Shown here: one piece after another, positions 3,030-19,684 of the stretch
How positions within the stretch are numbered: the first letter of the stretch is position 1
How the letters are laid out: the number at the start of each line of letters is the position of its first letter
Source: Candidatus Moraniibacteriota bacterium
GTDB lineage: Bacteria > Patescibacteriota > Minisyncoccia > Moranbacterales > GCA-2747515
Direction: 5' to 3'
Length of the DNA: 53,232 bases
NCBI GenBank assembly: GCA_038208115.1
Contig: JBBQZC010000002.1
Location: 1 to 53,232, forward strand
The notes under the pieces: generated by a model
The model's input: only the letters and a program-made list of their open reading frames with translations
Told to the model about the DNA's origin: nothing
Database searches by the model: none
Made by a program: the position numbers and the translations under genes

Positions 3030-3859
3030 TAGTAATTCAAAGATAATAATTTTGTTTTGTGCACCTCATTTTCATGCACATCTTCCATTGCAACAATTTG
3101 ATTAAAGTACGTACTCACAGTACCTACCCATCGCTGCACACTTTCTGGAGAATGTTGTGCGCAACTATCTCCACATTTCCAAGGTGTCACCATTTTTGCA
3201 GGTGTGTCTCGTTTTGTATCATATACAAAATGATTAAGACGTTTTGCGATTGTTTCCACTGCCTCTGCAGGAGAACCAAAACACGCATATCCCATAGATT
3301 GTCCACGTGTGCCAGATGATTTATACCCCCAGTAGTTATAGCAATCCACGCCACTCTTAGTTGGTGCATGCACGCCCCATTGACTTTCTTGTCGTGCAAT
3401 ACCCACAATCAGTCCAGCAACCTTTTTATCTTGCAAAGCAATATGTTCAGCCATCACCTCCATTGGATGATCTTTGAGCATTACTGCTAATTCCTGAGCA
3501 AAATGATCTTCTTCTGGCACTTCTACGAGTATCTTTCCTTCAAGACTTAACTGCTGGCATTCTTGATCAACATCCACAAGAGCAATTTTTCCATTCTGCA
3601 CATTGAACATGTCCTTACCAAATACGCATGCAGTATACCTTTGCAAATTCGCAGTTGCCACAGGCTTACTCTCATCAACAGTCGATGACGCATTACCAAC
3701 AACATAAAAACCACTCGCGATTACTACAGCCAATCCTGTAATGACAAAGTATGCATATTTTTTTGTGTATGTACGAATCATGTGTAGCGATGTTGTTAAC
3801 ATCTTAAGCGCCTCTACACGAAGACGCGACATCAGTAACGGTTCTTCATTTATAACCAT
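3029..3859 (-). CDS. Membrane-anchored protein with C-terminal lysozyme/glucosaminidase-like domain
   Basis: Single TM; GIARQESQWG...DCYNYWGY...YACF motif resembles lysozyme-fold peptidoglycan hydrolases; paralog at 15226..16494. Confidence 0.6.
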   Translation of the reverse strand: MVINEEPLLMSRLRVEALKMLTTSLHMIRTYTKKYAYFVITGLAVVIASGFYVVGNASSTVDESKPVATANLQRYTACVFGKDMFNVQNGKIALVDVDQECQQLSLEGKILVEVPEEDHFAQELAVMLKDHPMEVMAEHIALQDKKVAGLIVGIARQESQWGVHAPTKSGVDCYNYWGYKSSGTRGQSMGYACFGSPAEAVETIAKRLNHFVYDTKRDTPAKMVTPWKCGDSCAQHSPESVQRWVGTVSTYFNQIVAMEDVHENEVHKTKLLSLNY

Positions 3860-6607: not shown

Positions 6608-6640
6608 AAAAGCAGTATATGTCATTCATATACTGCTTTT
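6608..6640 (-). terminator. Intrinsic terminator of the Ehr-like operon
   Basis: Perfect 14-bp inverted repeat AAAAGCAGTATATG-TCATT-CATATACTGCTTTT 8 nt after the stop at 6649. Confidence 0.75.
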
Positions 6641-6648
6641 ACTGCATT

Positions 6649-8208
6649 TTATAGATCTGTTCCTGAATATGAAAGATTCAAGCTTTTATTGATCAGTGGA
6701 AAATCTGGCACGATATTCCCTGGTCCCATGATTCCAAATAATGCCCAGTTACAAAATGACGGATCACGTGGAAAACAACGTTCTATCAGACCATTTTTGA
6801 TTTGCACAGCACATACAATCTCCCCACGCCAAGATTCGACGACTCCAATCGCAAAACCATCTTTCACCACATATTTACCACAAACGGGCCCGTCATTGAT
6901 ATGTAAAATAAGTTTTTCTAGAAGAATAACCGATTGTTCAATTTCTTTGATACGCATACGAAATCTCGCAAATACATCATGACTTTTCTTCGTGATTACT
7001 GTAATGGGGTATTCCTTATATGCTGCATACGGATGATCTCGTCGCACGTCTCGATTGATTTCAGACGCGCGTGCAGGCAAACCTACTGCTCCAAAAGCCT
7101 TTGCAGCTTCATACGGCAATTCTCCTGTATACTGTAATCGATCTAAAAAGCCTTCACTATCTAGAGCAATGATCATAATATCGTTTATTTCTTTCCATGC
7201 AGTTTGCACAGTAGTTAATGCATTTTTCAAATCATGCTGTGAAATATCTACACAAACTCCACCTGGTACAATCATACCTCTCCAAAAACGATTTCCGCAC
7301 ATTTTTTCAGAAAGACGCATCATGCGTTCTTTGATGCGAAAACCGTTTGCAGCAATAAAACTATAACCCGTGCCCATACCCCCCATATTTGCGAGATCAT
7401 GAATATGCATGGTAATCCTCTCACATTCTGTAATAATCATACGAAGCATATGTGCCCTTTGTGGTACTCCGACATCATTTATTTTTTCCAGAGCCACACA
7501 ATATGCCAAAGCATGTGATGCACTTGCATCACCAGAAATTCTCTCAATAAATGGAAGCCCTTCCTCAATGGTCTTACCTTCCAATAATTTTTCTACTCCC
7601 TTATGTGTAAAAAATAACTTTCCTTCCAAGGTAATTATTCTCTCTCCTGCAACATTAAATCGAAAATGACCCGGTTCAATAATGCCAGCATGGATCGGAC
7701 CAACAGGAATCTCAAAAATACCTTCTCCCTCTACATGATGCATTGGATATGGCACGTGATCCTTTGAAAGTATAGTGTTCCATTTAAAATCTTTGCGAAG
7801 TGGAAATATATTTTCTGGATAATTTTCATGCAGCACGAGTCGACGTAAATCCGGATGACCTATTGGGACAATGCCGAGTAAGTCATTCATATACCGTTCA
7901 TACCAATGTGCTGCCATAATCGTGCGAGTCAGAGATGGATAGCATGGATCGACAGCGGAAACTGTTGCAGACAATTTGACCCACATGTTTTCTGCGTCAA
8001 CCGAAAAAATAGCGTGCACTCCAAAATAGCCAGAATCATTCCTCTCATCAGTTCCAAACAACAAGGAGAGTGGCAATGCATGATCATTCACCAAAATTGT
8101 CGAAATCATTGCGAGATCTTCAGAAGAAACTGATGCACTGATCATGTCTGGTGTCTCAGTTATATTCTGTATTTCGTTATATTTTCTAAGGATTGTCTTA
8201 ATAGTCAT
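6649..8208 (-). CDS. Ehr-type large subunit (HyfG/HycE-like NuoC-NuoD fusion) lacking NiFe-binding cysteines
   Basis: AAHWYER...GHPDLRRL (NuoC part), PVGPIHAGIIEPGHFRF, HKGVEK; L1 site ERISGDASASH and C-terminus DFPLINKSLNLSYSGTDL contain no CxxC. Confidence 0.9.
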   Translation of the reverse strand: MTIKTILRKYNEIQNITETPDMISASVSSEDLAMISTILVNDHALPLSLLFGTDERNDSGYFGVHAIFSVDAENMWVKLSATVSAVDPCYPSLTRTIMAAHWYERYMNDLLGIVPIGHPDLRRLVLHENYPENIFPLRKDFKWNTILSKDHVPYPMHHVEGEGIFEIPVGPIHAGIIEPGHFRFNVAGERIITLEGKLFFTHKGVEKLLEGKTIEEGLPFIERISGDASASHALAYCVALEKINDVGVPQRAHMLRMIITECERITMHIHDLANMGGMGTGYSFIAANGFRIKERMMRLSEKMCGNRFWRGMIVPGGVCVDISQHDLKNALTTVQTAWKEINDIMIIALDSEGFLDRLQYTGELPYEAAKAFGAVGLPARASEINRDVRRDHPYAAYKEYPITVITKKSHDVFARFRMRIKEIEQSVILLEKLILHINDGPVCGKYVVKDGFAIGVVESWRGEIVCAVQIKNGLIERCFPRDPSFCNWALFGIMGPGNIVPDFPLINKSLNLSYSGTDL

Positions 8209-8231
8209 AATTCTTGTATCAACTTAATATT

Positions 8232-9707
8232 CTATGTAATATATAAAAAATCATGCACGATTGCATTAATCACATGCACACCCCTATCCGTTGTAAACCA
8301 AAATGCCATGGCAATAATGATCACAAATTCTACTGCCATGATGGTATGCGTGATTTGCCATTTTTCTCTTCTGCCTTTATTTTGACAATCGTCTTTTTTG
8401 CAAAAGATCATATTGATCGTGAGTGAAAGCATGCCATAAGCAATCACGCTAAGTGCAACAAGCATGCAAATTGCAGTCTTTGGATAAAAAGTGATCGCCT
8501 GCGCAAACAGACCAAATTCACTAACAAAAAGTGCTGAGGGTGGTATGGCAAGAATCATGATTATGCCACATACAAAAAGCGCACTTGTATATTTCAGACG
8601 TATCGACATATTCGTAACCTTTGGAATTTTTGTCGTCTTAAATGCAATCAATATCTCGCCTGCTCCAAAAAACAATGCTGATTTCGCAAAAGTATGTCCA
8701 ATCATATGCATTACACCTGCTGCTGCGGCTAAAGGAGAAAGTCCAAATGCAAATAATATGAGTCCCATATGTTCGATACTCGAATACGCCAACATGCGCT
8801 TATAATTTGATTGGATCAATATCATGAACGCAGACAAAAAGATCGACAAAGCTCCAAAAATCAAAAAAAGATGATTTGTCCATGTCGAATCAACGAGTCC
8901 GGCATCTGCGACATATTTAAAACGCACGATGGCATAAAGAGCCACATTTAGTAATACAGCCGAAAATATGGCAGATATTGGCGATGGTGCCTTACTGTGT
9001 GCATCTGGCAACCATGTGTGCATCGGCACTAATCCTACTTTTGTACCAAAACCAATAAAAATAAATACGAATGATAACTTAATAATGTTTTCTGGTATAA
9101 TATGAGCGTTTTCAATGAGTGAACGAATAAGGAATATATCGCCCCCATGCAATCCACCAACATGTGCTCCATAGCTCAATAACAATAATCCTACAAGACC
9201 CAAGCTGATACCAGTCGAACATAGAATCATATATTTCCATGCTGCTTCAATACTTGTTTTTTTAAGATACAATCCAACCAAAAAAGTAGAGAAGAGTGTT
9301 GTGCCTTCTAATGCTAACCATAGAATTAACAAATTATTTGTTAGCACTGTCACAATCATACATGCTACAAATAAATGAAAAAGTGTAAAATAGATTTTAA
9401 CTTGTTTAAGTGAAACAATTTTTTCTGTAAATTCATGACCGATATATCTCACACTCACAACGAGAGATGTCATATACACAAATGTAATTAGTAAAACAAT
9501 AAGTCCTGAAAAGCCATCTATCATCCACCATGCATTCACCCATCGAACCTGAGCGTGCAAAACAAAAGGCACAGAATACAAAATAAGTAATGTGCTCCCA
9601 AAAACGGTAAAAAAAACACTACTCAAATATATAAATCTTTCCGTTTTTGCAAAGAAAGAACATGTAGCCGCTATTATGAATGGTAGTAAGAAAAAGACAG
9701 GATTCAT
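8232..9707 (-). CDS. HyfF-like proton-translocating antiporter-type membrane subunit
   Basis: LWLALEGTTL, EAAWKY, GFGTKVGLVPMHTWLPDAHSKAPSPISA, KRMLAYSSIEHMG; start moved to MNPVFF (9707). Confidence 0.9.
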   Translation of the reverse strand: MNPVFFLLPFIIAATCSFFAKTERFIYLSSVFFTVFGSTLLILYSVPFVLHAQVRWVNAWWMIDGFSGLIVLLITFVYMTSLVVSVRYIGHEFTEKIVSLKQVKIYFTLFHLFVACMIVTVLTNNLLILWLALEGTTLFSTFLVGLYLKKTSIEAAWKYMILCSTGISLGLVGLLLLSYGAHVGGLHGGDIFLIRSLIENAHIIPENIIKLSFVFIFIGFGTKVGLVPMHTWLPDAHSKAPSPISAIFSAVLLNVALYAIVRFKYVADAGLVDSTWTNHLFLIFGALSIFLSAFMILIQSNYKRMLAYSSIEHMGLILFAFGLSPLAAAAGVMHMIGHTFAKSALFFGAGEILIAFKTTKIPKVTNMSIRLKYTSALFVCGIIMILAIPPSALFVSEFGLFAQAITFYPKTAICMLVALSVIAYGMLSLTINMIFCKKDDCQNKGRREKWQITHTIMAVEFVIIIAMAFWFTTDRGVHVINAIVHDFLYIT

Positions 9708-9735
9708 ATAATCTAATATTAATGATGCAAAAAAA

Positions 9736-11334
9736 TTATTCGACCAATTCACGCAAATCTTCGGTATCAGTACTTCCATATAGGTCATTGATCTGTGCGC
9801 TAAGAATTGCCAAAATATAAGCAGTTGCAACTGTCACAGAAAAAATACCAAACTCAATCATAAGTGGAAGTGAGCCGACTGTCGCAAGTACAAAAACAGC
9901 AATACCGTTTTCAACAATGAGCAGACCAATAATTTGAGAATAAATGTTCCTTTTGATGATCATCATAGCAATGCCGAGAACGATTAGCGAAACCGCGGTA
10001 TATAAAAGAGAATTCCATTCAACTAATCCTATGATCGTGACTTTACGTAATGTAAAATATGTAACAATCAATAAAATGATTGCCAAAAAATAACTCTTTC
10101 CCGGACGTAAAAATGATGGTAAATTTGTAAGACTTTTTTTTGCGTGACTCGCACGATTGATCACGTACGGTACAGCAATTGTTTTCGTGATAATTGTAAA
10201 AGCAGCAAACATCCATAAATGATATTTCTCATCTTCAGGTACCAACGGAACGATTCCCCATGCGATGCCCGCAATAGCAAATGAAGAATATGCATAATAT
10301 CGCAAAATTGCCTTTAATCGGACACGACCAAATAATAAAACAACGCAAATTATTGTGAGCAATGAAAATAAAATATGATTCTGAAAAGCAATATTATTTA
10401 CCGACGAAATAATCGCAATCAGCATACCCAAGATACCAACAACAAATGCTATCGAAAAATATTCTGACATGCGATAAAAACGCATTTTTGCAAGCATCGA
10501 TTCTACAAATCCCAACGTAATCATTACACATATAATCTTTATCATACTGTATAACAAACCACTCAACAGCAAACCAAAACTCCATGATTGTACATCAATA
10601 ACAGAATGCGGGAAAATAAAGTTTGTGATTAAAAGAGCAAATATTGTCAATTTTATACTGGAAGCATATTCCAAGAATGCAAGATATTTTCCAGAATATT
10701 CCAAAATCATAGCCTCATGCACCATAGTGAGCTCTAAATGTGTCGCAGGATTATCAACCGGATATCTCGCATTTTCCGCCAATGCAATCAACCCAAGTGC
10801 TATAAGGCTAAGAAAAAGGTACGGTTCTGTAAAAAGATTGACTTTTTGTAGCATCCCGTCAATAGTTGATGATCCAGATACAAAATTGATGGTTGAAAAT
10901 ACCACTATCACGACCGGTTCCAAAAGTGTTGCTATTGTCATTTCTCGACTGGACCCCATACCACCGAAAGCACTTCCTGCATCCAAACCACCTAAAACTA
11001 AGAAAATTGAACCTGTAACCAGAACTCCAGAAATAATAAGGAAGTCACTCATAAACGCAATGTGCGTATTGATAAAAATAACTGGCACAATAACAGCGAG
11101 AGCCAGTGCACAACCAAAAACGACGTACGGCACGCTGCGAAAAACCCATGATGATGCGTGTGGAATAATCATTTCTTTTTTGAGCAATGTACTAAGTGTA
11201 ATATATGGCAAGAACGGCGAAGCACCATGACGACCTTGTAAACGCGCCTTGATCATTCGTACAAGTCCAGTGGCAAATGGAGCAATTGCTAAAATAAAAA
11301 TTATTTGTATCAGGATTGCTAATAATGAGCTCAT
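9736..11334 (-). CDS. Fused HyfC (NuoH-like) - HyfE membrane subunit
   Basis: N-half KARLQGRHG, GSAFGGMGSSRE, AENARYPVDNPATHLELTMVHEAMILEYSG (HyfC); C-half SQIIGLLIVENGI (HyfE); one 532-aa frame. Confidence 0.85.
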   Translation of the reverse strand: MSSLLAILIQIIFILAIAPFATGLVRMIKARLQGRHGASPFLPYITLSTLLKKEMIIPHASSWVFRSVPYVVFGCALALAVIVPVIFINTHIAFMSDFLIISGVLVTGSIFLVLGGLDAGSAFGGMGSSREMTIATLLEPVVIVVFSTINFVSGSSTIDGMLQKVNLFTEPYLFLSLIALGLIALAENARYPVDNPATHLELTMVHEAMILEYSGKYLAFLEYASSIKLTIFALLITNFIFPHSVIDVQSWSFGLLLSGLLYSMIKIICVMITLGFVESMLAKMRFYRMSEYFSIAFVVGILGMLIAIISSVNNIAFQNHILFSLLTIICVVLLFGRVRLKAILRYYAYSSFAIAGIAWGIVPLVPEDEKYHLWMFAAFTIITKTIAVPYVINRASHAKKSLTNLPSFLRPGKSYFLAIILLIVTYFTLRKVTIIGLVEWNSLLYTAVSLIVLGIAMMIIKRNIYSQIIGLLIVENGIAVFVLATVGSLPLMIEFGIFSVTVATAYILAILSAQINDLYGSTDTEDLRELVE

Positions 11335-13316
11335 AATGCAGTTATTAATGTAATGATCAATGCAAACAAAAGAAACAATATGTAATATTGAATACGCCCA
11401 CTTTGGATTAAACGCACTCTTTCAGCTACGATAAATAATCCTTTCGTAATCGGTGCATACAGAACATCAATCCATATCGGACGCAGATACAATGCAAAAA
11501 AGCTCTTTCTAATCCAGGGATTTGTTTCGACTATAGCTTCTGACCGAATCGTTTTTTCTCTTCCTATGAACGTCAAAAAGAAAAAACGAATTGGTGCTGA
11601 AAACGCCGTTGCACTATATTGCATACTTACATCAATCGGCTGTCCACAATCCCATGTATGATATTTACGTTCTTTGTGATTTTTTAATACAATTTTATTG
11701 ATCATATACACCAGAGATCCAATCGCAAAAACGATCACGGCCACAAAAATCGAAGTAATATTCATTGGCTGTGGGGAAATATTACTAGCGGTTGCAAATG
11801 ACTGTATATATACACTTATCTGCAAAATAATAGGCTGTGCAAATATACCGAGAACGAGAACTGTCATGCCCAAAATTATGATAGGCACAATCAACAAAAT
11901 ATCAGTTTTTTCGGACCTTTTGTCTATAGAATGATGCGGTAATCCCAACATTGATATACCAAAAATTCTGATCATCGCAAAAATTCCCAACCCACCAATA
12001 AGTCCTATAGCAACAAGAGTACTGAGAAGAAGAATAATGTCATACGGAGCATCATGTAAAGAACGCAGCAAGGATATTACGCTTTGTATAAATCCCCACT
12101 CTCCATAAAATGTACCAAATGGTGGCAAAGGCAGTGAGCCCAATATAACAATCAGAAAACCAAAGCTAAATATCGGCATAACTTTAGCAATGCCACCCAT
12201 CGCATCAAGACTTTTTGTATGAACACGATTTATGATCACGCCACTGCTAAGAAATAATGCTGTTTTAAATAATGCATGATTGATTGCATGAAACATCGTA
12301 AACGCGATTAATCCATATGCTATAACTTCATGAACATTTTGTGATAAATAATACATTGCCAAACCAAGCATGGCAAAAATAATACCCATATTTTCAATAC
12401 TACTATACGCGAGGACTCTTTTTATATCTCTTTCAATTACTGCATAGAGCACACCGACAAGTCCCGATAAAAGACCGAGAAATATCACAATAAGTGCAGC
12501 AAATCGAGGTATATGATACATCTCGAGCATGATCATTATAAAGCCATATACAGCAACTTTAAGCATAAGACCACTCATTAACGCCGATATATTACTCGGT
12601 GCCTGCGGGTGCGCTTCTGGAAGCCACACATGAAAAGGTACCAATCCAGCCTTTGATCCAAAGCCAAACAAGAACAAAAGAAAAACAAAATATTGTGATA
12701 CAACAGATAAATTTTGTGAAGCATTTTGTATTTGATCAAAATCAAATGATAGCGAACCTTTCCCTAAAATCAAAAATCCTGCCAAAATCGCCGATGCCCC
12801 AATGTGCGTCATAATTAGATATAAAAAAGCTGCTTTAATCGACTCTGACTTTCGATCAGATAGCACTAAAAAAAATGAAGAAAAAGACATTACCTCCCAA
12901 AAAAACAAGAAAGAAAAAGTCTCATGGGAGATAAGAACCCCTTGCATGCCTAAAACAAAAAATGCCATCAAGGATGCCACCATAGATGGGTTGTATGTTT
13001 CTTTATAAAGAGAGAGGTACTGAAGACTGTACACACCCACAAGTGCGGAAACTCCGCATAATACAGTAAAAAATACGGCGGAAATTGCATGTAATTGTGG
13101 TGCAAAATGGAAAAACCATTCAACATCCATCAAAATAATATGTTGACCTGAAAACTGTGTAAAATAAATAATGCCCACAGTAAAACCGACTACATTTGCT
13201 AATACAAATAGCTTCGTTGCATTTTGAAACTTTTTTTGAAACAAAACCAGTAAGCCAGATAAAAATAATCCAACGAAATAGAATATGATGCCATAGATAA
13301 TATATTGCTCCCACAT
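11331..13316 (-). CDS. HyfB-like (NuoL/MrpA family) antiporter-type membrane subunit
   Basis: FLFFWEVMS, GFGSKAGLVPFHVWLPEAHPQAPSNISALMSG, KRVLAYSSIENMG, NHALFK, TWDCG, IQSGRIQYY. Confidence 0.9.
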   Translation of the reverse strand: MWEQYIIYGIIFYFVGLFLSGLLVLFQKKFQNATKLFVLANVVGFTVGIIYFTQFSGQHIILMDVEWFFHFAPQLHAISAVFFTVLCGVSALVGVYSLQYLSLYKETYNPSMVASLMAFFVLGMQGVLISHETFSFLFFWEVMSFSSFFLVLSDRKSESIKAAFLYLIMTHIGASAILAGFLILGKGSLSFDFDQIQNASQNLSVVSQYFVFLLFLFGFGSKAGLVPFHVWLPEAHPQAPSNISALMSGLMLKVAVYGFIMIMLEMYHIPRFAALIVIFLGLLSGLVGVLYAVIERDIKRVLAYSSIENMGIIFAMLGLAMYYLSQNVHEVIAYGLIAFTMFHAINHALFKTALFLSSGVIINRVHTKSLDAMGGIAKVMPIFSFGFLIVILGSLPLPPFGTFYGEWGFIQSVISLLRSLHDAPYDIILLLSTLVAIGLIGGLGIFAMIRIFGISMLGLPHHSIDKRSEKTDILLIVPIIILGMTVLVLGIFAQPIILQISVYIQSFATASNISPQPMNITSIFVAVIVFAIGSLVYMINKIVLKNHKERKYHTWDCGQPIDVSMQYSATAFSAPIRFFFLTFIGREKTIRSEAIVETNPWIRKSFFALYLRPIWIDVLYAPITKGLFIVAERVRLIQSGRIQYYILFLLFALIITLITAL

Positions 13317-13327
13317 ATGTATAATGA

Positions 13328-13870
13328 TTATTTTATTTTTTGATATTTCAATATCGAAAGTACACCATGTAAAATTTCTATCGGCGTTGGTGGATCACCG
13401 GGAATTTTCAAATGAACTGGTATGACATTTTCTACTGGACCTACGATTGCATAAGAGTCTTTCCACATCCCTCCTGTGCATGCACCATCACCAATTGCAA
13501 CAACAATGCACGGTTGCGGGACTGCTTCATATGTTGTACGCAAAGCATATTCCAAATTTCTTGTTACGGGACCAGTGACAAAAAGCATATCTGCATGACG
13601 CGGTGAAGCCACAAAACTCAATCCAAATCGATCAATATCATAATAAGCATTATTTAGTGCTGTCAATTCAATCTCTTCCGCATTTGTCGATCCAGCGTCA
13701 ACAGCGCGAATACGCAATGAACGACCAGCATATAATTGATCAATAATTTTTTTTATTTCACTACCAAGAACTTCCAATGCCTCATTATCATTTGATTCAA
13801 AAAATATTTCTTTTTTTTCAATAACGCTCTTTTTAAAGAGCAAAACACGTAATAACGACAGGGCTTTCAT
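13328..13870 (-). CDS. HyfI/NuoB-like small subunit with substituted Fe-S ligands
   Basis: RSLRIRAVDAGS, YDIDRFGLSFVASPRHADMLFVTGPVT; ligand positions read GSTNAEE, GDGAC, PGDPP. Confidence 0.88.
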   Translation of the reverse strand: MKALSLLRVLLFKKSVIEKKEIFFESNDNEALEVLGSEIKKIIDQLYAGRSLRIRAVDAGSTNAEEIELTALNNAYYDIDRFGLSFVASPRHADMLFVTGPVTRNLEYALRTTYEAVPQPCIVVAIGDGACTGGMWKDSYAIVGPVENVIPVHLKIPGDPPTPIEILHGVLSILKYQKIK

Positions 13871-13969
13871 AAAATTATTTTGAGAAAATCAGCGAGAATA
13901 AAAAAACGGATCAATCCGAAATCTTAAAAGATTCATTCTTATATCAAAAAATGTCCACACACATCACAC

Positions 13970-13998
13970 ATATTACTCCTACATAAAGCCACTGTCAA
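13970..13998 (-). promoter_or_regulatory. Putative promoter of the Ehr-like operon
   Basis: TTGACA-N17-TAATAT about 100 nt upstream of the small-subunit start. Confidence 0.5.
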
Positions 13999-14106
13999 TA
14001 CACTTCGATCCACAAAAATACGTCACCTCATTTTTACTTCCTCCCAAAACTTTAAATTAGAAAAAAAATAATTCACACCTCATGAGATGATTTTGAAAAA
14101 TCATGA

Positions 14107-15132
14107 TCAATTAACAATTTCCATTTCCATTGTTTCAGCATTCAAAACGACAGACATAACGTTCATATATGCAACCATATCATCATGATCATTTTTCACG
14201 ATTTCTTGCGTTAATTTATTTAAATATATAGCACGTTCCTTTGCTCGATTTTTTTCTGCAGCATCAGAGTATACTGCTGAAGAAAGCAGAACAAATCCAT
14301 TATGCGTTTTTTTCACTCGTAGATTTTCTTTGATAATCCCAATTGCTTTTTTTATAGGTTCTCCAATATTTGGGTCATACGGACCCACGATTAAGGCAAT
14401 ATTCGGTGTATGCAACCAATCAAAACCCTTTCCCACAGCCATTATCCACTCACCATGCACGAGTTGCATCAAAGGCTTTCCAGTATTTATTGTTTCTTTG
14501 ATACAACAAATATTTCCTTGTACCAAGGGGATAAGGTCATGCAAAATTCTTTCTGGCATTGATGGATATAGCCTATGGAAGATAATACGTAATGACTTTT
14601 CAGTATCATCATTTATACTGGATACATCTAGGATATTCCCATTCTCTCCATGAAAGATGAGTGCATCTTTATCAGTTTCTAGCCCCACAAGTATTGGAAA
14701 AACCACGCCATTATCCTTGCCATACGTACGCAAGATTTGTTTACGAAAATTTTCTGTAAAACGTTTGGACTCTTCACAATCATAATTAAAACCCGCACAA
14801 CCACGATGTTCCTCCCCTTGAGAGTAATGATATGTCACGAGCACGAGAGTACGATTGCCATGTGCAACCGCTTTTTTGACATGCTGATCAAATGACTCAT
14901 TAAGTAACGGCCACCCGAGATCGAATCTCCCACCAATATTGCGAAATGGACGCATGATGCCAAGCGGCGTTCTCGTCACTGTCGGCATATGAATCCGACC
15001 ATCCATACATTTAAATACTATAACATTTGTAGGATGTTGTGATAAATACAATTCTCTTTCCAATCGCTGACTCTGAAACATTTCAGAATGTTTCTTATTG
15101 AGATCAATGAGTATCTTTTTACTTTTTTCCAT
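14107..15132 (-). CDS. Beta-class carbonic anhydrase, CsoSCA (carboxysome shell CA)-like
   Basis: FKCMDGRI (Cys ligand plus Asp-x-Arg dyad) and YHYSQGEEHRGCAG (His...Cys ligands with CsoSCA-like long spacing). Confidence 0.75.
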   Translation of the reverse strand: MEKSKKILIDLNKKHSEMFQSQRLERELYLSQHPTNVIVFKCMDGRIHMPTVTRTPLGIMRPFRNIGGRFDLGWPLLNESFDQHVKKAVAHGNRTLVLVTYHYSQGEEHRGCAGFNYDCEESKRFTENFRKQILRTYGKDNGVVFPILVGLETDKDALIFHGENGNILDVSSINDDTEKSLRIIFHRLYPSMPERILHDLIPLVQGNICCIKETINTGKPLMQLVHGEWIMAVGKGFDWLHTPNIALIVGPYDPNIGEPIKKAIGIIKENLRVKKTHNGFVLLSSAVYSDAAEKNRAKERAIYLNKLTQEIVKNDHDDMVAYMNVMSVVLNAETMEMEIVN

Positions 15133-15186: not shown

Positions 15187-15214
15187 ATTGTATTGCATTT
15201 ACTGACAATGTCAA
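15187..15214 (-). promoter_or_regulatory. Putative promoter of the carbonic anhydrase gene
   Basis: TTGACA-N16-TACAAT about 55 nt upstream of the ATG. Confidence 0.45.
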
Positions 15215-15225
15215 CGTCAACGTAT

Positions 15226-16494
15226 TTAGTTTGTAGATAATTTACTATGATATGAATCCACCACATTGATCCAGCGATCAACGCTTTCCTGTGAATGTCC
15301 ATCGCATGTACTACCACACTTCCACACGACAAGCCTACTTGCTGTCTTGCGATCATATTCATAAATGAGCTCGTGGATTCGCTTGCCAACGCTTTCGACA
15401 GCATCCTGACGTGAATTAAAACACGTATGCCCACCAGTACCCATCAGTTTTCTCACACTACGATAGCCCCAATAGTTATAGCAATCTTGTCCATCAAGAA
15501 CCGGCACATGCTCACCCATTCCACTTTCCTGTACAGATATTGCAATTAAATATTTTGCAACCTCTGGATCCTGCTCGAGGATATATGGAAGCATTTTTTC
15601 TATTGGATGTCCTGCTGTGACCTCTTGCGCGAGTTCCTCGAGAGATTTTGTACTAACGATTTCTTTTATGTCTTCATTTACTGCTTTAACTGCACTATCG
15701 ATAGAATTTGTCACAACTTCTTTTGTAGGCAAACCACTTTCTCCTTCTGTAGTGTTTTCTTTTGCTACAATATCCGCCATTATTATTGAGGGCGTACTTT
15801 GTTCAACAGCTTCTTGTACAGCAACAGCTTCAATCTTTGGATCAATAATCGTTTCATTTTTCTCAATAGCACTATCAGTCGCATCATCATTTTTATCATT
15901 CACACTAACAATTGGCTCAACTTTTGAATCTTCAAGTACAATTGTTGTTGCTTTATCATCCGTGCCAGCCATCACATCTTCAGCATCCTGCGCAAATGCA
16001 TTAGCACCAAGATTTTTATAGATCATACTCATTGATACCATACCGACGATCATTGCACCCCCAAGTGAAACCTGATACATACGCAATGGTGACATACTAA
16101 TACGCATTGCCGCACGATATTGTGACATCGTGTCAAATACGCGGGCTGTATGCAAACTGATCTTGCGATACTGCATTTCACCCACGGTGTATTTCTTCAC
16201 ATAACGTACATATGCACTATCAAAAGACAAGACTATATCTCTGCAATTTTCTTGCTGCTGATCAAAGGACGTACCATATTTACGAGAATCTTGCGTAACA
16301 AAAAAATCTGTACGCTCACCTCCGAGAAGTAAGGCAGATATATTATTTTCATGGTTTTGTTGCATTACATCCTGTAATTCTGATAAACTGATTTCACATC
16401 TCTTTGCGCATGACAAACCATCTGTAAAAACTTTTTTTCTATTTTTTATTATTTTGTTCGCATATAAATGCGAGTAATCCGCTCCTATATCCAT
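15226..16494 (-). CDS. Membrane-anchored protein with acidic linker and C-terminal lysozyme/glucosaminidase-like domain
   Basis: One hydrophobic segment, D/E-rich linker, then AISVQESGMG...DCYNYWGY...HTCF...WKCG, homologous to 3029..3859. Confidence 0.6.
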   Translation of the reverse strand: MDIGADYSHLYANKIIKNRKKVFTDGLSCAKRCEISLSELQDVMQQNHENNISALLLGGERTDFFVTQDSRKYGTSFDQQQENCRDIVLSFDSAYVRYVKKYTVGEMQYRKISLHTARVFDTMSQYRAAMRISMSPLRMYQVSLGGAMIVGMVSMSMIYKNLGANAFAQDAEDVMAGTDDKATTIVLEDSKVEPIVSVNDKNDDATDSAIEKNETIIDPKIEAVAVQEAVEQSTPSIIMADIVAKENTTEGESGLPTKEVVTNSIDSAVKAVNEDIKEIVSTKSLEELAQEVTAGHPIEKMLPYILEQDPEVAKYLIAISVQESGMGEHVPVLDGQDCYNYWGYRSVRKLMGTGGHTCFNSRQDAVESVGKRIHELIYEYDRKTASRLVVWKCGSTCDGHSQESVDRWINVVDSYHSKLSTN

Positions 16495-18543: not shown

Positions 18544-19623
18544 TTATGCATTGAATGTTTCCAATTGCTTTTTGAACTCAATGGCATAGATCTTCCACAA
18601 TGCGATCATGAGCGCCATAACTATTGGACCAACGATAAAACCGATAAATCCAAAAAGTTGCAGACCACCTAGCGTAGCAAAAAATACTGCAAGTGTATGC
18701 ATCTGTACGTCCTTTCCTACCAATTTTGGTCGCAAAATATTATCGATTGTCGATACAAAGCCTCCAATAATGATCAAAAATATTCCTTGCCATACATATC
18801 CCAGCAGTAACATGATGATTGCAGTTGGAAAAATCACAAATCCTGCACCGACCGCAGGTATAACACTAAAGACGATCATGATCACAGTCCACAATATTGG
18901 TGATACTACGCCAGCAATGGCAAACGCTATACCTCCAATCGACCCCTGTATACACCCAATCACGACAGTACCTTTTAACGTTGCTCGTGCCATTGAAACG
19001 AATTCTTTGATTAATTTCGTCTCATGTTCATTACGCATTGGACTAATTTCCATAAATGCACGCATGATCTTCTTCCCGTCAATAAAGAAATAAAACAGTG
19101 TAAAGAACATGACAAAAAATCCGACAATACCATTGATTAATCCATGATACGCTTTTTGAAAAAAAGCGATTGATGTGTTTGCAATATTTTTTACAATGTT
19201 TGCAATTTCTGGTCCACTGACATATTCATTTAGTCGTTCCAAAGGAATACTGAGAATTGGTGCCGTAGTGATCATCGTAATAATACGCTCAATTGATTGT
19301 TGTGTAGTTGAGTTTTCCGTTGTGCTTTCAGTTATCACATGAGAAACCTCATTGACGATCAAGCCTGAGACAAACAAGATCGGTAAAATTATAGTGAATG
19401 CCACAACACACAGCATCACGGCAGATGCAATAAATGGACTGCCTATTTTCTGTGAAAGATATTCATATGGACGAACAAAAAGTACTGAAAATAACGCCGC
19501 AATAAATATCGCGCTCAGAAAAGGCTTAATAAGCAAAAATCCAGCCACTGTACCAACTGCAAGGATAGCAAGAAAGAAGTAAATATTGAGATTCTTTAGT
19601 ATCATATATTTATAAACAAACAT
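18544..19623 (-). CDS. AI-2E family transporter
   Basis: Multi-TM; FYFFIDG, QGSIGG, IDNILRPKLVG, GGLQLFGFIGFIVGP. Confidence 0.88.
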   Translation of the reverse strand: MFVYKYMILKNLNIYFFLAILAVGTVAGFLLIKPFLSAIFIAALFSVLFVRPYEYLSQKIGSPFIASAVMLCVVAFTIILPILFVSGLIVNEVSHVITESTTENSTTQQSIERIITMITTAPILSIPLERLNEYVSGPEIANIVKNIANTSIAFFQKAYHGLINGIVGFFVMFFTLFYFFIDGKKIMRAFMEISPMRNEHETKLIKEFVSMARATLKGTVVIGCIQGSIGGIAFAIAGVVSPILWTVIMIVFSVIPAVGAGFVIFPTAIIMLLLGYVWQGIFLIIIGGFVSTIDNILRPKLVGKDVQMHTLAVFFATLGGLQLFGFIGFIVGPIVMALMIALWKIYAIEFKKQLETFNA

Positions 19624-19684
19624 TAATATCTACACTTTAGCAATGCTTAGCCAGAATGTAAACAGCTACATGTTCGCTCCACGA

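What the first reader, a model, noticed from the sequence alone, without database searches (positions are those of the whole stretch)
6649..15132. Cofactor-free Ehr/complex-I-like membrane complex next to a CsoSCA-like carbonic anhydrase: candidate new CO2/bicarbonate-coupled ion pump
Seen: a co-oriented beta-carbonic anhydrase (CMDGR, H-x9-C) lies 236 nt upstream of a five-gene operon. The operon has two intact antiporter-type subunits (HyfB, HyfF), a NuoH-HyfE fusion, a NiFe-less large subunit and a small subunit missing its Fe-S ligands. There is no ferredoxin-like (NuoI/HyfH), flavoprotein or maturation gene in the locus. Established: Ehr complexes lack the NiFe site and have no known substrate; DAB/MpsAB (beta-CA-like DabA plus NuoL-like DabB) and cyanobacterial NDH-1 with CupA/B couple complex-I-type membrane subunits to CO2 hydration. 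Inference: with no redox centre left, this complex may work with the CA, either as a pmf-driven inorganic carbon pump or as a device using fermentative CO2/HCO3- for ion translocation or pH control in a non-respiring CPR cell. Caveat: the two units each have a putative promoter, so the linkage may be chance.
Basis: partly seen in the sequence, partly recalled or inferred. Interest (0 to 1): 0.85.

Follow-up and report, generated by a model that had tools for sequence, protein, structure and literature searches.

The report
Carbonic anhydrase beside cofactor-free Ehr complex
A small groundwater-type bacterium keeps a carbonic anhydrase next to a complex-I-like membrane machine that has lost all its redox metal sites, and the same pairing recurs in distant bacteria, which gives two proteins of unknown role a shared, testable job in handling protons, ions and CO2/bicarbonate.

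Summary
On the minus strand lie a 341-aa CsoSCA-type beta-carbonic anhydrase (the published but unstudied "CsoSCA2" family) and, 236 nt downstream, a five-gene Ehr operon. The large subunit lacks all four NiFe cysteines. The small subunit lacks its Fe-S ligand set.

CA-Ehr adjacency is not chance. It recurs in four gene arrangements, with different CsoSCA2 subclades, in CPR bacteria and in Beta- and Gammaproteobacteria. Where both genes occur in one genome they are usually neighbours: 9 of 14 in a 151-genome order sample, 5 of 5 in a 251-genome proteobacterial sample.

But the two are separable. Five close relatives carry the CA without any antiporter-like gene. Most Ehr operons have no such CA. 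The Ehr operon has its own conserved promoter.

In CPR the commoner neighbour of both is the F-type ATP synthase operon (atp-CA-Ehr, atp-Ehr-CA, atp-Ehr, atp-CA). In other phyla CsoSCA2 sits with DabA/antiporter operons and SulP transporters.

Best reading: an autonomous cytoplasmic CA cooperating with a redox-dead ion translocator in proton/ion/bicarbonate homeostasis. A true CA-coupled pump is not excluded. No physical contact is shown.

The parts
14107..15132 (-). CsoSCA2-type beta-carbonic anhydrase, 341 aa: two short N-terminal helices, a catalytic domain with C42/D44/R46/H102/C112, and a degenerate second domain
   Evidence: Pfam PF20686 26.5 bits, above the cut-off of 21.5. Invariant residues in 39 of 39 sequences. 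AF2 pLDDT 92.6. Foldseek matches to CsoSCA at TM 0.71-0.74.
15187..15214 (-). promoter-like site upstream of the CA gene (TTGACA-16-TACAAT)
   Evidence: Consensus scan, 11 of 12 positions. Pattern match only.
13970..13998 (-). promoter-like site of the Ehr operon (TTGACA-17-TAATAT, preceded by GGAG)
   Evidence: Scan, 10 of 12 positions. A TTGACA with a GAGTA-containing second element is present in all 7 CA->Ehr loci aligned, though the two most diverged are offset in the alignment. It is also present upstream of ehrS in several atp->Ehr loci.
13900..13918 (-). small hairpin (CGGAT/ATCCG) followed by T7 in the Ehr leader; possible attenuator
   Evidence: Coordinates. Equivalent hairpin plus T-run seen by eye in 5 of the 7 aligned loci; the two same-genus genomes have a different hairpin before a short, interrupted T stretch. 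Also in L120, L126, L127, L130. Not tested by folding.
13328..13870 (-). EhrS, NuoB/MbhJ-like small subunit without the [4Fe-4S] ligand set
   Evidence: PF01058 at 79 bits. Alignment to 6cfw_J. Same losses in all 25 CPR EhrS sequences aligned.
11331..13316 (-). HyfB/HycC/NuoL-type antiporter-like subunit, 661 aa
   Evidence: PF00361 at 174 bits; NF005086 at 472 bits, below its cut-off of 667. Best solved relatives are HycC 7z0s_C, MbhH 6cfw_H and MrpA 7qru_A. E141, K222, H229, H236, K253, K299, H343, H347, K351 and E406 are invariant in 20 sequences.
9736..11334 (-). NuoH-like domain fused to a HyfE/NuoK-like domain, 532 aa
   Evidence: PF00146 on residues 8-305, PF00420 on 443-530, NF008556 on 325-530. 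Separate genes in type-B CPR and proteobacterial operons.
8232..9707 (-). HyfF/NuoN-M-type antiporter-like subunit. The ORF is open to 9830; the likely start is M42 at 9707.
   Evidence: PF00361 at 167 bits; NF005044 at 335 bits, below its cut-off. Start inferred from orthologs of 491-494 aa.
6649..8208 (-). EhrL, NuoC+NuoD/HycE-like large subunit without NiFe cysteines
   Evidence: PF00329, PF00346 and PF00374. Alignment to 7z0s_E. R-x-S-G-D and L-S-Y-S-G motifs (the R-x-S-G-D core and the S-Y of the second in all 55; minor variants in the rest of the second motif) in the 55 EhrL sequences aligned.
6608..6640 (.). 14-bp hairpin with T-run just after the EhrL stop; likely end of the operon
   Evidence: Terminator-like scan. 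Pattern match only.

Best explanation
The locus holds two separable units that work in the same cellular business.

Unit 1 is CsoSCA2, a compact non-carboxysomal CsoSCA-type beta-carbonic anhydrase with a complete zinc site. It most likely acts as a free cytoplasmic enzyme that keeps CO2, HCO3- and H+ in fast equilibrium.

Unit 2 is a CPR-type Ehr complex. Its modules are NuoB-like, NuoC/D-like, NuoH-like, NuoK-like and two antiporter-like subunits. It has no NiFe site, no Fe-S ligand set and no electron-input module. It therefore cannot be a redox enzyme. It most likely works like an Mrp-type secondary H+/cation translocator.

In this lineage both units belong to a gene neighbourhood centred on the F-type ATP synthase. 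I infer that they serve proton, ion and bicarbonate homeostasis of a non-respiring cell. The ATPase and Ehr would move H+/cations, the CA would supply or absorb H+ and HCO3- at the cytoplasmic face, and a SulP transporter encoded elsewhere in the genome could move the anion.

Shown: gene identities, loss of cofactor ligands, conserved channel residues, and recurrent gene linkage.

Inferred: ion translocation by Ehr, CA activity, the direction of fluxes, and cooperation without a stable complex.
For: Identity of the parts.

Charged residues of the antiporter-like subunit are invariant in 20 sequences and align with HycC, MbhH and MrpA.

Linkage in the order sample of 151 genomes:
- CA in 23 and EhrL in 35 (24 of the window's type A).
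- Both in 14, all type A. Chance expectation for both is 5.3.
- Neighbours in 9 of the 14, apart in 3, and unresolved at contig ends in 2.

Linkage in other samples:
- Phylum sample of 401: both genes in 2 genomes, adjacent in both.
- Proteobacterial order sample of 251: both in 5, all within 4 kb.
- Four arrangements and several CsoSCA2 subclades are involved.

ATP synthase link:
- atp->CA->Ehr in 2 genomes, G776 (loci L007 and L121 are the same contig) and G208 (L082).
- atp->Ehr->CA in L141 and L142.
- atp->Ehr in 10 loci.
- atp->CA in 8 loci.

Autonomy of the CA:
- 0 of 5 CA-bearing relatives have EhrL or PF00361. The PF00361 control rings in 13 of 14 known genomes.
- The Ehr operon has its own conserved promoter.

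Own genome (96.8% complete):
- No RuBisCO and no Pro_CA.
- Only weak ATP-grasp hits.
- A SulP gene on C20 and the atp operon on C14.
- HyfB and HyfF are the only antiporter-like genes found with these queries.
Against: - No experiment or expression data bears on any step.
- Ion translocation by any Ehr has never been measured, as far as the papers I read say (PMC10284858, PMC6349859, PMC7304191, passages).
- The peripheral arm is kept under strong conservation. The R-x-S-G-D and L-S-Y-S-G motifs replace the NiFe cysteines in all 55 EhrL sequences aligned. A plain Mrp-like antiporter would not need that arm, which hints at a chemistry or a ligand I have not identified.
- A merely 'thematic' link does not easily explain why the CA sits directly at an end of the Ehr operon in four arrangements.
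- In Nitrosomonas the CA is the last gene of a DabA/antiporter operon with a 25-nt gap. That looks more like a subunit than a free enzyme.
Confidence: 0.45

Rival explanations
1. Vectorial carbonic anhydrase. CsoSCA2 docks on an antiporter-like subunit or on the vacant peripheral arm of Ehr, so that CO2 hydration or dehydration is coupled to H+/Na+ movement. This would work like DabA-DabB or CupA-NDH-1 but on a redox-dead complex-I frame. It is the first reader's pump.
For: - Recurrent adjacency in four arrangements.
- CsoSCA2 is the last gene of an antiporter-DabA-3x antiporter operon in 13 Nitrosomonadaceae-type loci.
- 31 of the 80 best CsoSCA2 loci have a PF00361-type neighbour, either Ehr or DAB-type.
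- DabA's closest structural relative is CsoSCA (PMC13684180, passage).
- SulP heads the CA-linked proteobacterial Ehr operons in 5 of 5 complete loci. Among 19 Ehr loci without the CA it lies directly upstream in 3, with a distant SulP-like match beside a fourth.
Against: - CsoSCA2 occurs without any antiporter-like gene in 5 of 5 close relatives tested.
- About 10 of 24 type-A Ehr genomes in the order sample, and 75 of 80 in the proteobacterial sample, have no CsoSCA2.
- The transcription units are separate, and convergent in Betaproteobacteria.
- No evident need for carbon concentration in this genome.
Confidence: 0.2
2. No functional link. Both are patchy accessory genes that tend to land in the same permissive spot, for example downstream of the atp operon. 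They stay together by inertia.
For: - Both genes are sparsely and independently distributed.
- In CPR each is found alone directly after atpC.
- In three genomes with both, G755, G672 and G780, they lie apart. They also lie apart in Nitrospiraceae G407.
Against: - The pair stays together where it is not next to the atp operon: the window, G669, G695, G738, G759.
- Adjacency recurs in Proteobacteria, where no atp operon is near.
- Different CsoSCA2 subclades sit on either side of the operon.
- Co-occurrence with type-A Ehr is 14 of 24, against 9 of 127 in the other genomes. These genomes are kin and not independent.
Confidence: 0.12
3. Ehr is still a redox or chemically driven enzyme whose partner or ligand is encoded elsewhere. 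It would bind at the conserved S-G-D / S-Y-S-G pocket, and the CA would be incidental.
For: - The former NiFe pocket is strongly conserved in 55 EhrL sequences across three phyla.
- Proteobacterial and Nitrospira EhrS keep all four cluster cysteines.
- Others have proposed formate dehydrogenase-Ehr complexes in other phyla (PMC6349859, passages).
Against: - All 25 CPR EhrS sequences aligned lack the cysteine set.
- No NuoI/E/F/G-like or Fdh gene lies in the locus or in the flanks of the other CPR Ehr loci scanned.
Confidence: 0.06

Closest known systems
[quoted passage not shown] 2020 (PMC7304191, passages read)
   Same: Group-4-hydrogenase-like large subunit without NiFe cysteines, NuoB-like small subunit, NuoH-like and antiporter-like subunits, and function unknown.
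   Different: - The CPR form has also lost the small-subunit Fe-S cysteines, which proteobacterial and Nitrospira Ehr keep.
- Here NuoH and HyfE are fused.
- The link to CsoSCA2 and to the atp operon appears neither in the passages my term searches returned from that paper nor in my literature searches. 'ATP synthase', 'antiporter' and 'carbonic anhydrase' each occur 0 times in its main text. Its supplements could not be seen.
CsoSCA2 (non-carboxysomal CsoSCA homologs; Scott lab review, PMC9164163, passages read)
   Same: Short N-terminus of two helices, active plus defunct domain, all active-site residues, and reported presence in Moranbacteria, Nitrosomonas oligotropha and Sulfuricaulis.
   Different: That review calls the family unstudied. 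It only notes csoSCA2 near cbbLS in Sulfuricella. 'SulP' and 'hydrogenase' occur 0 times in it. The neighbourhoods found here (Ehr, DabA/antiporter operons, SulP, atp operon) are additions.
DAB (DabA-DabB) vectorial CO2 hydration pumps (PMC13684180 and 10.64898/2026.03.13.711513, passages read)
   Same: A beta-CA-fold protein genetically tied to NuoL-type proton-channel subunits. DabA's nearest structural relative is CsoSCA.
   Different: - The CA here has no PF10070 match and is a third of DabA's size.
- The membrane partner is a whole Ehr, not one DabB.
- The units are separately transcribed, and the CA also exists without any membrane partner.
Cyanobacterial NDH-1MS with CupA/CupS (recalled, not read here)
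   Same: A complex-I-type membrane arm combined with a CO2-hydrating protein.
   Different: NDH-1MS is redox-driven by ferredoxin through intact Fe-S clusters, and CupA is not a beta-CA. The complex here has no redox centres.
Mrp-type multisubunit cation/proton antiporters (solved relatives 7qru and 6z16 matched)
   Same: Two antiporter-like subunits plus a NuoK-like subunit, with no redox chemistry.
   Different: Ehr keeps NuoH-, NuoB- and NuoC/D-like subunits, which Mrp lacks. No MrpE/F/G-like genes are seen.
E. coli formate hydrogenlyase / Hyf and Pyrococcus Mbh (7z0s, 6cfw)
   Same: These are the best solved relatives of every subunit, with the same gene families.
   Different: They carry a NiFe site, Fe-S clusters and a NuoI-like subunit. 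All are absent here.

Membership tests
Ehr complex | Large subunit homologous to group 4 [NiFe]-hydrogenase / NuoD but lacking the two CxxC NiFe motifs | tested here: met
   Alignment to HycE 7z0s_E (E 1.6e-72): RISGDA and LSYSG at the two motifs. Same in all 55 EhrL sequences aligned.
Ehr complex | NuoB-like small subunit, NuoH-like subunit and antiporter-like subunits in one operon | tested here: met
   PF01058, PF00146, PF00420 and 2x PF00361 in five co-oriented genes with gaps of -4 to 28 nt.
Group 4 [NiFe]-hydrogenase (Hyf/Hyc/Mbh/Ech) | Four NiFe cysteines in the large subunit and a [4Fe-4S] cluster in the small subunit | tested here: not met
   0 of 4 NiFe cysteines. 3 of 4 cluster cysteines replaced and the fourth displaced.
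Respiratory complex I | N2 cluster in NuoB, NuoI, and an electron-input module NuoE/F/G | tested here: not met
   Cluster ligands are lost. No such families among the locus genes scanned. The whole genome was not searched for NuoE/F/G/I.
CsoSCA2 (non-carboxysomal CsoSCA-type beta-CA) | CsoSCA catalytic-domain match with Cys-Asp-Arg-His-Cys active-site residues | tested here: met
   PF20686 above its cut-off. C42, D44, R46, H102 and C112 invariant in 39 of 39 sequences.
CsoSCA2 (non-carboxysomal CsoSCA-type beta-CA) | Two-domain fold (active plus defunct) with a short two-helix N-terminus instead of the ~140-aa Rubisco-binding N-terminal domain | tested here: met
   AF2 model has helices 2-21 and 23-32, then two alpha/beta domains. 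It aligns over about 360 columns to CsoSCA chains of 457-471 aa. The family description is from PMC9164163.
CsoSCA2 (non-carboxysomal CsoSCA-type beta-CA) | Carbonic anhydrase activity | not testable with these tools
   No member has been assayed according to PMC9164163 ('yet to be studied').
Carboxysomal CsoSCA | Equivalog-level match, and a location in a cso locus with Rubisco and shell genes | tested here: not met
   TIGR02701 at 27 bits against a cut-off of 241. No RuBisCO large subunit in the genome.
DAB pump | DabA (PF10070) paired with a DabB NuoL-like subunit | tested here: not met
   The CA matches only PF20686. DabA is found next to CsoSCA2 in other organisms, for example L043 at E 1e-224, but not here.
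Mrp antiporter | MrpA/D antiporter-like subunits plus MrpB, C, E, F, G, with no NuoB/D/H homologs | tested here: not met
   The antiporter-like and NuoK-like parts are present. NuoB-, NuoC/D- and NuoH-like subunits are also present, and no further small membrane genes lie in the operon.

The most novel reading that the evidence does not exclude
CsoSCA2 is a docking carbonic anhydrase for NuoL-family proton channels. With the cofactor-free Ehr it would form a third kind of vectorial CA machine, after Cup-NDH-1 and DAB. In that machine CO2/HCO3- interconversion replaces redox chemistry at a complex-I frame. In CPR it would be wired to the neighbouring F-type ATP synthase, either spending ion-motive force to control internal bicarbonate and pH, or harvesting CO2/HCO3-/H+ disequilibrium from fermentative decarboxylation for ion translocation.
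Probability: 0.17. Interest if true: 0.92.

Novelty: new variant of a known kind. Interest (0 to 1): 0.64.

Why it matters
Ehr complexes have been known for over a decade with no substrate. CsoSCA2 was flagged in 2022 as widespread and unstudied. CPR bacteria have an ATP synthase but, as a rule, no respiratory chain.

A conserved atp-CsoSCA2-Ehr neighbourhood, plus SulP-Ehr-CsoSCA2 and DabA/antiporter-CsoSCA2 operons in autotrophs, ties these three loose ends to one theme: protons, ions and inorganic carbon.

It also turns them into bench questions that can be answered with existing assays. These are rescue of CA-free E. coli, complementation of antiporter-deficient E. coli, and vesicle transport.

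If the CA proves to be coupled to the complex, it would show that the complex-I architecture can run on acid-base chemistry alone.

Tried and rejected
- Complex prediction of HyfB-like (1-661) with the CA (5-341), each with its alignment: verdict 'no answer', score 0.00, controls not run. This is neither for nor against binding. Only this one pair could be tried. EhrS/EhrL and HyfF were not tested.
- Expression: no RNA holder was listed for the 8.5-kb stretch. The one DNA holder may be the source sample.
- Rfam: 0 matches at gathering score in the whole window.
- Sequence search of the CA against solved structures: nothing significant, best E 0.058. The fold search was needed.
- I looked for another CA or a constant partner next to the CA-less type-B CPR Ehr operons. 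Ten flanking proteins gave VTT, HlyD, HTH/SocA, L10 and GPI matches, or nothing. No partner emerged.
- I looked for a constant partner of the betaproteobacterial Ehr. The flanks are housekeeping genes (metG, apbC-type, dcd, recG, dnaE).
- I considered that the ATP synthase might be Na+-coupled, which would make a Na+/H+ role for Ehr natural. The c subunit on contig C14 has its carboxylate followed by Ala-Ile and no helix-1 Gln at the position I recall for Na+ ligands. That signature is from memory and was not tested, so I draw nothing from it.
- I first read all proteobacterial cases as convergent. Re-reading one search shows that Sulfuricaulis (L052, L071) is co-oriented, Ehr->CA.
- Literature searches. 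'Ehr' + 'energy-converting hydrogenase' + 'carbonic anhydrase' gave 0 papers. 'CsoSCA2' gave 3 papers, one irrelevant. Searches gave nothing describing a CA-Ehr, atp-Ehr or DabA-CsoSCA2 link. Subscription papers and supplements were not searchable. Marreiros et al. 2013 on Ehr is recalled and was not read. The supplements of PMC7304191 (its Fig. S6 and context data) and of PMC9164163 may show neighbourhoods that I could not see.

Full report
**What is in the window.**

Six co-oriented genes lie on the minus strand between 15132 and 6649.

The first encodes a 341-aa protein.
- Its only family match is Pfam CsoSCA_cat: 26.5 bits against a cut-off of 21.5. The carboxysomal equivalog model reaches only 27 of 241 bits.
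- In alignments of 18 and then 39 homologs, C42-M-D44-G-R46, H102 and C112 never vary.
- An AlphaFold2 model built on the 39-row alignment has mean pLDDT 92.6 and pTM 0.91.
- Its best structural matches are the three solved CsoSCA entries: TM 0.71-0.74 on the query, E about 1e-17, 16-18% identity. The match covers both the catalytic and the degenerate domain. Ordinary beta-CAs match only half of it.

After a 236-nt gap come five tightly packed genes:
- a NuoB-like small subunit;
- a HyfB/HycC-like antiporter-type subunit;
- a NuoH domain fused to a HyfE/NuoK-like domain;
- a HyfF-like antiporter-type subunit, whose likely start is at 9707 rather than 9830;
- a NuoC+NuoD-type large subunit.

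Residue-by-residue alignments to solved relatives show the cofactor losses.
- All four NiFe cysteines of HycE are replaced in the large subunit.
- Three of the four cluster cysteines of MbhJ are replaced in the small subunit, and the remaining cysteine is shifted by two positions.
- The HyfB-like subunit keeps the Glu/Lys/His chain that it shares with HycC, MbhH and MrpA. E141, K222, H229, H236, K253, K299, H343, H347, K351 and E406 are invariant in 20 sequences.

No electron-input or maturation gene lies among the neighbours scanned.

**Both parts are already named in print.**

The CA belongs to the family that a 2022 review called CsoSCA2. From the passages I read, that review describes:
- non-carboxysomal CsoSCA homologs with a roughly 40-residue two-helix N-terminus;
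- an active and a defunct domain, with all catalytic residues;
- presence in Moranbacteria (nine genomes), other CPR phyla, Nitrosomonas oligotropha and Sulfuricaulis;

That text never mentions SulP or hydrogenase-like genes.

The CPR Ehr clade was noted in 2020 as monophyletic and lacking the metal-binding cysteines (PMC7304191, passages). 'ATP synthase', 'antiporter' and 'carbonic anhydrase' do not occur in its main text. Other papers call the function of Ehr unknown or propose a formate dehydrogenase partner (PMC10284858 and PMC6349859, passages).

**Is the CA-Ehr neighbourhood more than chance?**

The CA family is large: 2082 hits at E <= 1e-3. A scan of one genome per species found 562 encoding loci, and I examined the best 80 with 10-kb flanks. 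I used tblastn with the window's proteins, my own ORF calling and clustering, and Pfam scans of cluster representatives. This gave recurrent contexts:
- (a) Ehr operons next to the CA in 11 of 80 loci. Three are CPR loci arranged like the window. Six are Betaproteobacteria-type loci where the operon (sulP-hyfB-nuoH-hyfE-hyfF-ehrL-ehrS) runs head-on into the CA gene. Two are Sulfuricaulis loci where the CA follows ehrS on the same strand.
- (b) DabA (PF10070) with four antiporter-like genes in 20 loci. In 13 Nitrosomonadaceae-type loci the CA is the last gene of that operon, 25 nt after the preceding gene in N. oligotropha.
- (c) A SulP/STAS transporter directly upstream in about 10 Nitrospira-type loci.
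- (d) The F-type ATP synthase operon directly upstream in eight further CPR loci, and downstream in one.

I then sampled whole genomes.
- Phylum sample, 401 genomes. The CA occurs in 6 and a full-length EhrL in 10. Both occur in 2 (the window's genome and G208), and in both they are neighbours.
- The window's own order, 151 genomes. The CA occurs in 23 and EhrL in 35. The 35 split into 24 of 'type A' (63-100% identical to the window's) and 11 of 'type B' (40-44%). Both genes occur in 14 genomes, all type A, against 5.3 expected by chance. They are neighbours in 9: six as CA->Ehr and three as Ehr->CA. They lie apart in 3 and are cut by contig ends in 2.
- The order around Sulfuricella, 251 genomes. 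EhrL occurs in 80 (two of them unpublished genomes) and the CA in 11. Both occur in 5, and in all five they lie within 4 kb.
- One Nitrospiraceae genome has both genes, far apart.

These genomes are kin, so the counts are not independent. But the arrangements differ.
- The CAs beside Ehr belong to several subclades. They are 27-42% identical to the window's in the Ehr->CA genomes and 33% in G208, and all have the catalytic residues.
- On the quick CA tree, the label 'next to Ehr' needs at least 2 changes in Proteobacteria and at least 3 in CPR on starred branches. One of the CPR rows is a very long branch.

I conclude that the linkage is real and was assembled or kept repeatedly.

**The two units are nevertheless separable.**

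- Five genomes whose CA is 74-78% identical to the window's in four, and 60% in the fifth, have no EhrL. They also have no Proton_antipo_M gene at all, while that family search rings in 13 of 14 control genomes.
- Conversely, 10 of 24 type-A Ehr genomes in the order sample, all 11 type-B genomes, and 75 of 80 proteobacterial Ehr genomes have no CsoSCA2 at the thresholds used.
- The ehr operon has its own promoter-like element. TTGACA, 17-18 nt, then GAGTA-n-n-AT is found in all seven CA->Ehr loci aligned and in several loci where ehrS follows atpC. It is followed in many by a small hairpin and a T-run in the leader.
- In Betaproteobacteria the CA is transcribed towards the operon, not with it.

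**The commoner neighbour in CPR is the ATP synthase.**

Type-A Ehr operons start directly after atpD-atpC in 14 of the 26 type-A genomes I could inspect.
- In two of these the CA lies between atp and Ehr.
- In two the CA lies after ehrL.
- In ten there is no CA beside the pair.
- Eight further CPR loci have the CA alone after atpC.
- None of the seven type-B loci fetched has either neighbour.

In the window's own genome the atp operon lies on another contig (C14). The CA-Ehr pair has moved as a pair, as it has in the two same-genus genomes and in G738 and G759.

**What the genome says about need.**

The genome is 96.8% complete.
- I found no RuBisCO large subunit, no ordinary beta-CA, and only weak ATP-grasp matches for CPSase_L_D2, the ATP-binding domain family of carbamoyl-phosphate synthases and biotin carboxylases.
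- There is a SulP/STAS transporter on contig C20.
- HyfB and HyfF are the only antiporter-like genes found with these queries.

A carbon-concentrating role therefore has no visible customer here. A role in acid-base and ion balance does.

**Cofactor state across the family.**

- In 55 EhrL sequences from CPR, Proteobacteria and Nitrospira, the two NiFe motifs are replaced by conserved R-x-S-G-D and (N)-L-S-Y-S-G-x-D.
- All 25 CPR EhrS sequences lack the cluster cysteines. Three type-B sequences keep one.
- All 30 proteobacterial and Nitrospira EhrS sequences keep the full set of four.

So 'Cys-less small subunit' marks CPR Ehr in general, not the CA-linked ones. The CA associates with both states. 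The conserved polar pocket at the former NiFe site is unexplained.

**How it most likely works.**

I commit to the following, at about 45%.
- CsoSCA2 is an autonomous cytoplasmic carbonic anhydrase.
- The CPR Ehr is a redox-dead H+/cation translocator, working like Mrp.
- Both are accessories of the ATP synthase-centred ion economy of a fermentative cell. The CA buffers and supplies H+ and HCO3- at the inner face of the membrane.

In the autotrophs the same logic reads as follows. SulP imports bicarbonate; BicA-type SulP proteins are Na+-dependent as I recall. Ehr keeps the ion gradient. CsoSCA2 delivers CO2 to a non-carboxysomal Rubisco.

The Nitrosomonas operon and the closeness of DabA to CsoSCA in structure (PMC13684180, passage) speak for it. 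The autonomy of the CA speaks against it.

Chance or hitch-hiking I put at about 12%. A hidden redox or ligand partner I put at about 6%. The rest is unknown.

**Novelty.**

Both parts are known kinds. What I did not find in print is the set of links reported here:
- the link between CsoSCA2 and Ehr;
- the atp-CsoSCA2-Ehr neighbourhood in CPR;
- the sulP-ehr operon with CsoSCA2;
- the DabA/four-antiporter/CsoSCA2 operon.

Supplements and subscription journals were not covered. I rate the finding a new variant of a known kind, with moderate to high interest, because it gives two orphan families a common, testable hypothesis.

Noticed in passing
window 13900-13998 (- strand); also L137, L138, L007, L009, L120, L126, L127, L130: The ehr operon has a conserved promoter-like element (TTGACA, 17-18 nt, GAGTA-n-n-AT). 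About 40-90 nt later comes a small GC hairpin followed by a T-run, before the ehrS start. It looks like a leader attenuator. No Rfam family matches.
   Followed up: partly
L036:487-11020 (Nitrosomonas oligotropha Nm75) and 12 similar loci: A six-gene operon: antiporter-like (490 aa), DabA (1103 aa), three more Proton_antipo_M proteins (522, 539, 501 aa), then CsoSCA2 25 nt later. This DAB-type system is much larger than the DabA-DabB pair described in the papers I read.
   Followed up: partly
L025:11028-20606 (Sulfuricella) and L046, L067, L070, L114: A SulP/STAS transporter is the first gene of, or just upstream of (2.6 kb in L114), the proteobacterial Ehr operon in all 5 complete CA-linked loci. 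Among 19 Ehr loci without the CA it lies directly upstream in 3, with a distant SulP-like match beside a fourth.
   Followed up: partly
window 6649-8208 (EhrL residues around RISGDASASH and NLSYSGTDL); 55 sequences: The former NiFe-binding motifs are replaced by strongly conserved R-x-S-G-D and L-S-Y-S-G-x-D across CPR, Proteobacteria and Nitrospira. This suggests a conserved polar or acidic pocket of unknown ligand.
   Followed up: no
loci L095-L114 and L094 versus CPR loci: Proteobacterial and Nitrospira EhrS keep all four [4Fe-4S] cysteines, whereas every CPR EhrS has lost them. 'Ehr' therefore covers both a one-cluster form and a cluster-free form.
   Followed up: yes
window 15226-16494 (-), 3095-3571 (-); own genome C33:8485-8964: The 422-aa protein upstream of the CA has no Pfam or NCBIfam match. 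Its C-terminal part of about 160 residues recurs in two other genes of the genome (37-42% identity). A 53%-identical ortholog sits upstream of the CA in both same-genus genomes.
   Followed up: no
window 18544-22393 (-): An AI-2E/UPF0118-family transporter and a P-type cation ATPase lie 3.4-7 kb upstream of the CA, so the wider neighbourhood is rich in ion transporters.
   Followed up: no
own genome C20:13342-15114 (+) (L115:1343-3115): A 590-aa SulP/STAS transporter is encoded in this small CPR genome. It is a possible bicarbonate or other anion carrier.
   Followed up: no
L001, L003, L011 (record titles): Some records carrying CPR-type loci are titled Micavibrio sp., Bdellovibrionales or Gammaproteobacteria. 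L001 is the same contig as G695:C12, which the genome tool places in the window's own genus. These bin labels are probably wrong.
   Followed up: partly
L127 (G705:C5:73300-86000): Here the type-A Ehr operon has ATP synthase a-subunit-like matches on both sides: 62% identity upstream and 33% downstream. This may be a second, divergent atp cluster.
   Followed up: no
L049:2462-13487: A further order of the same parts: SulP, then CsoSCA2, then one small gene, then the atp operon.
   Followed up: no
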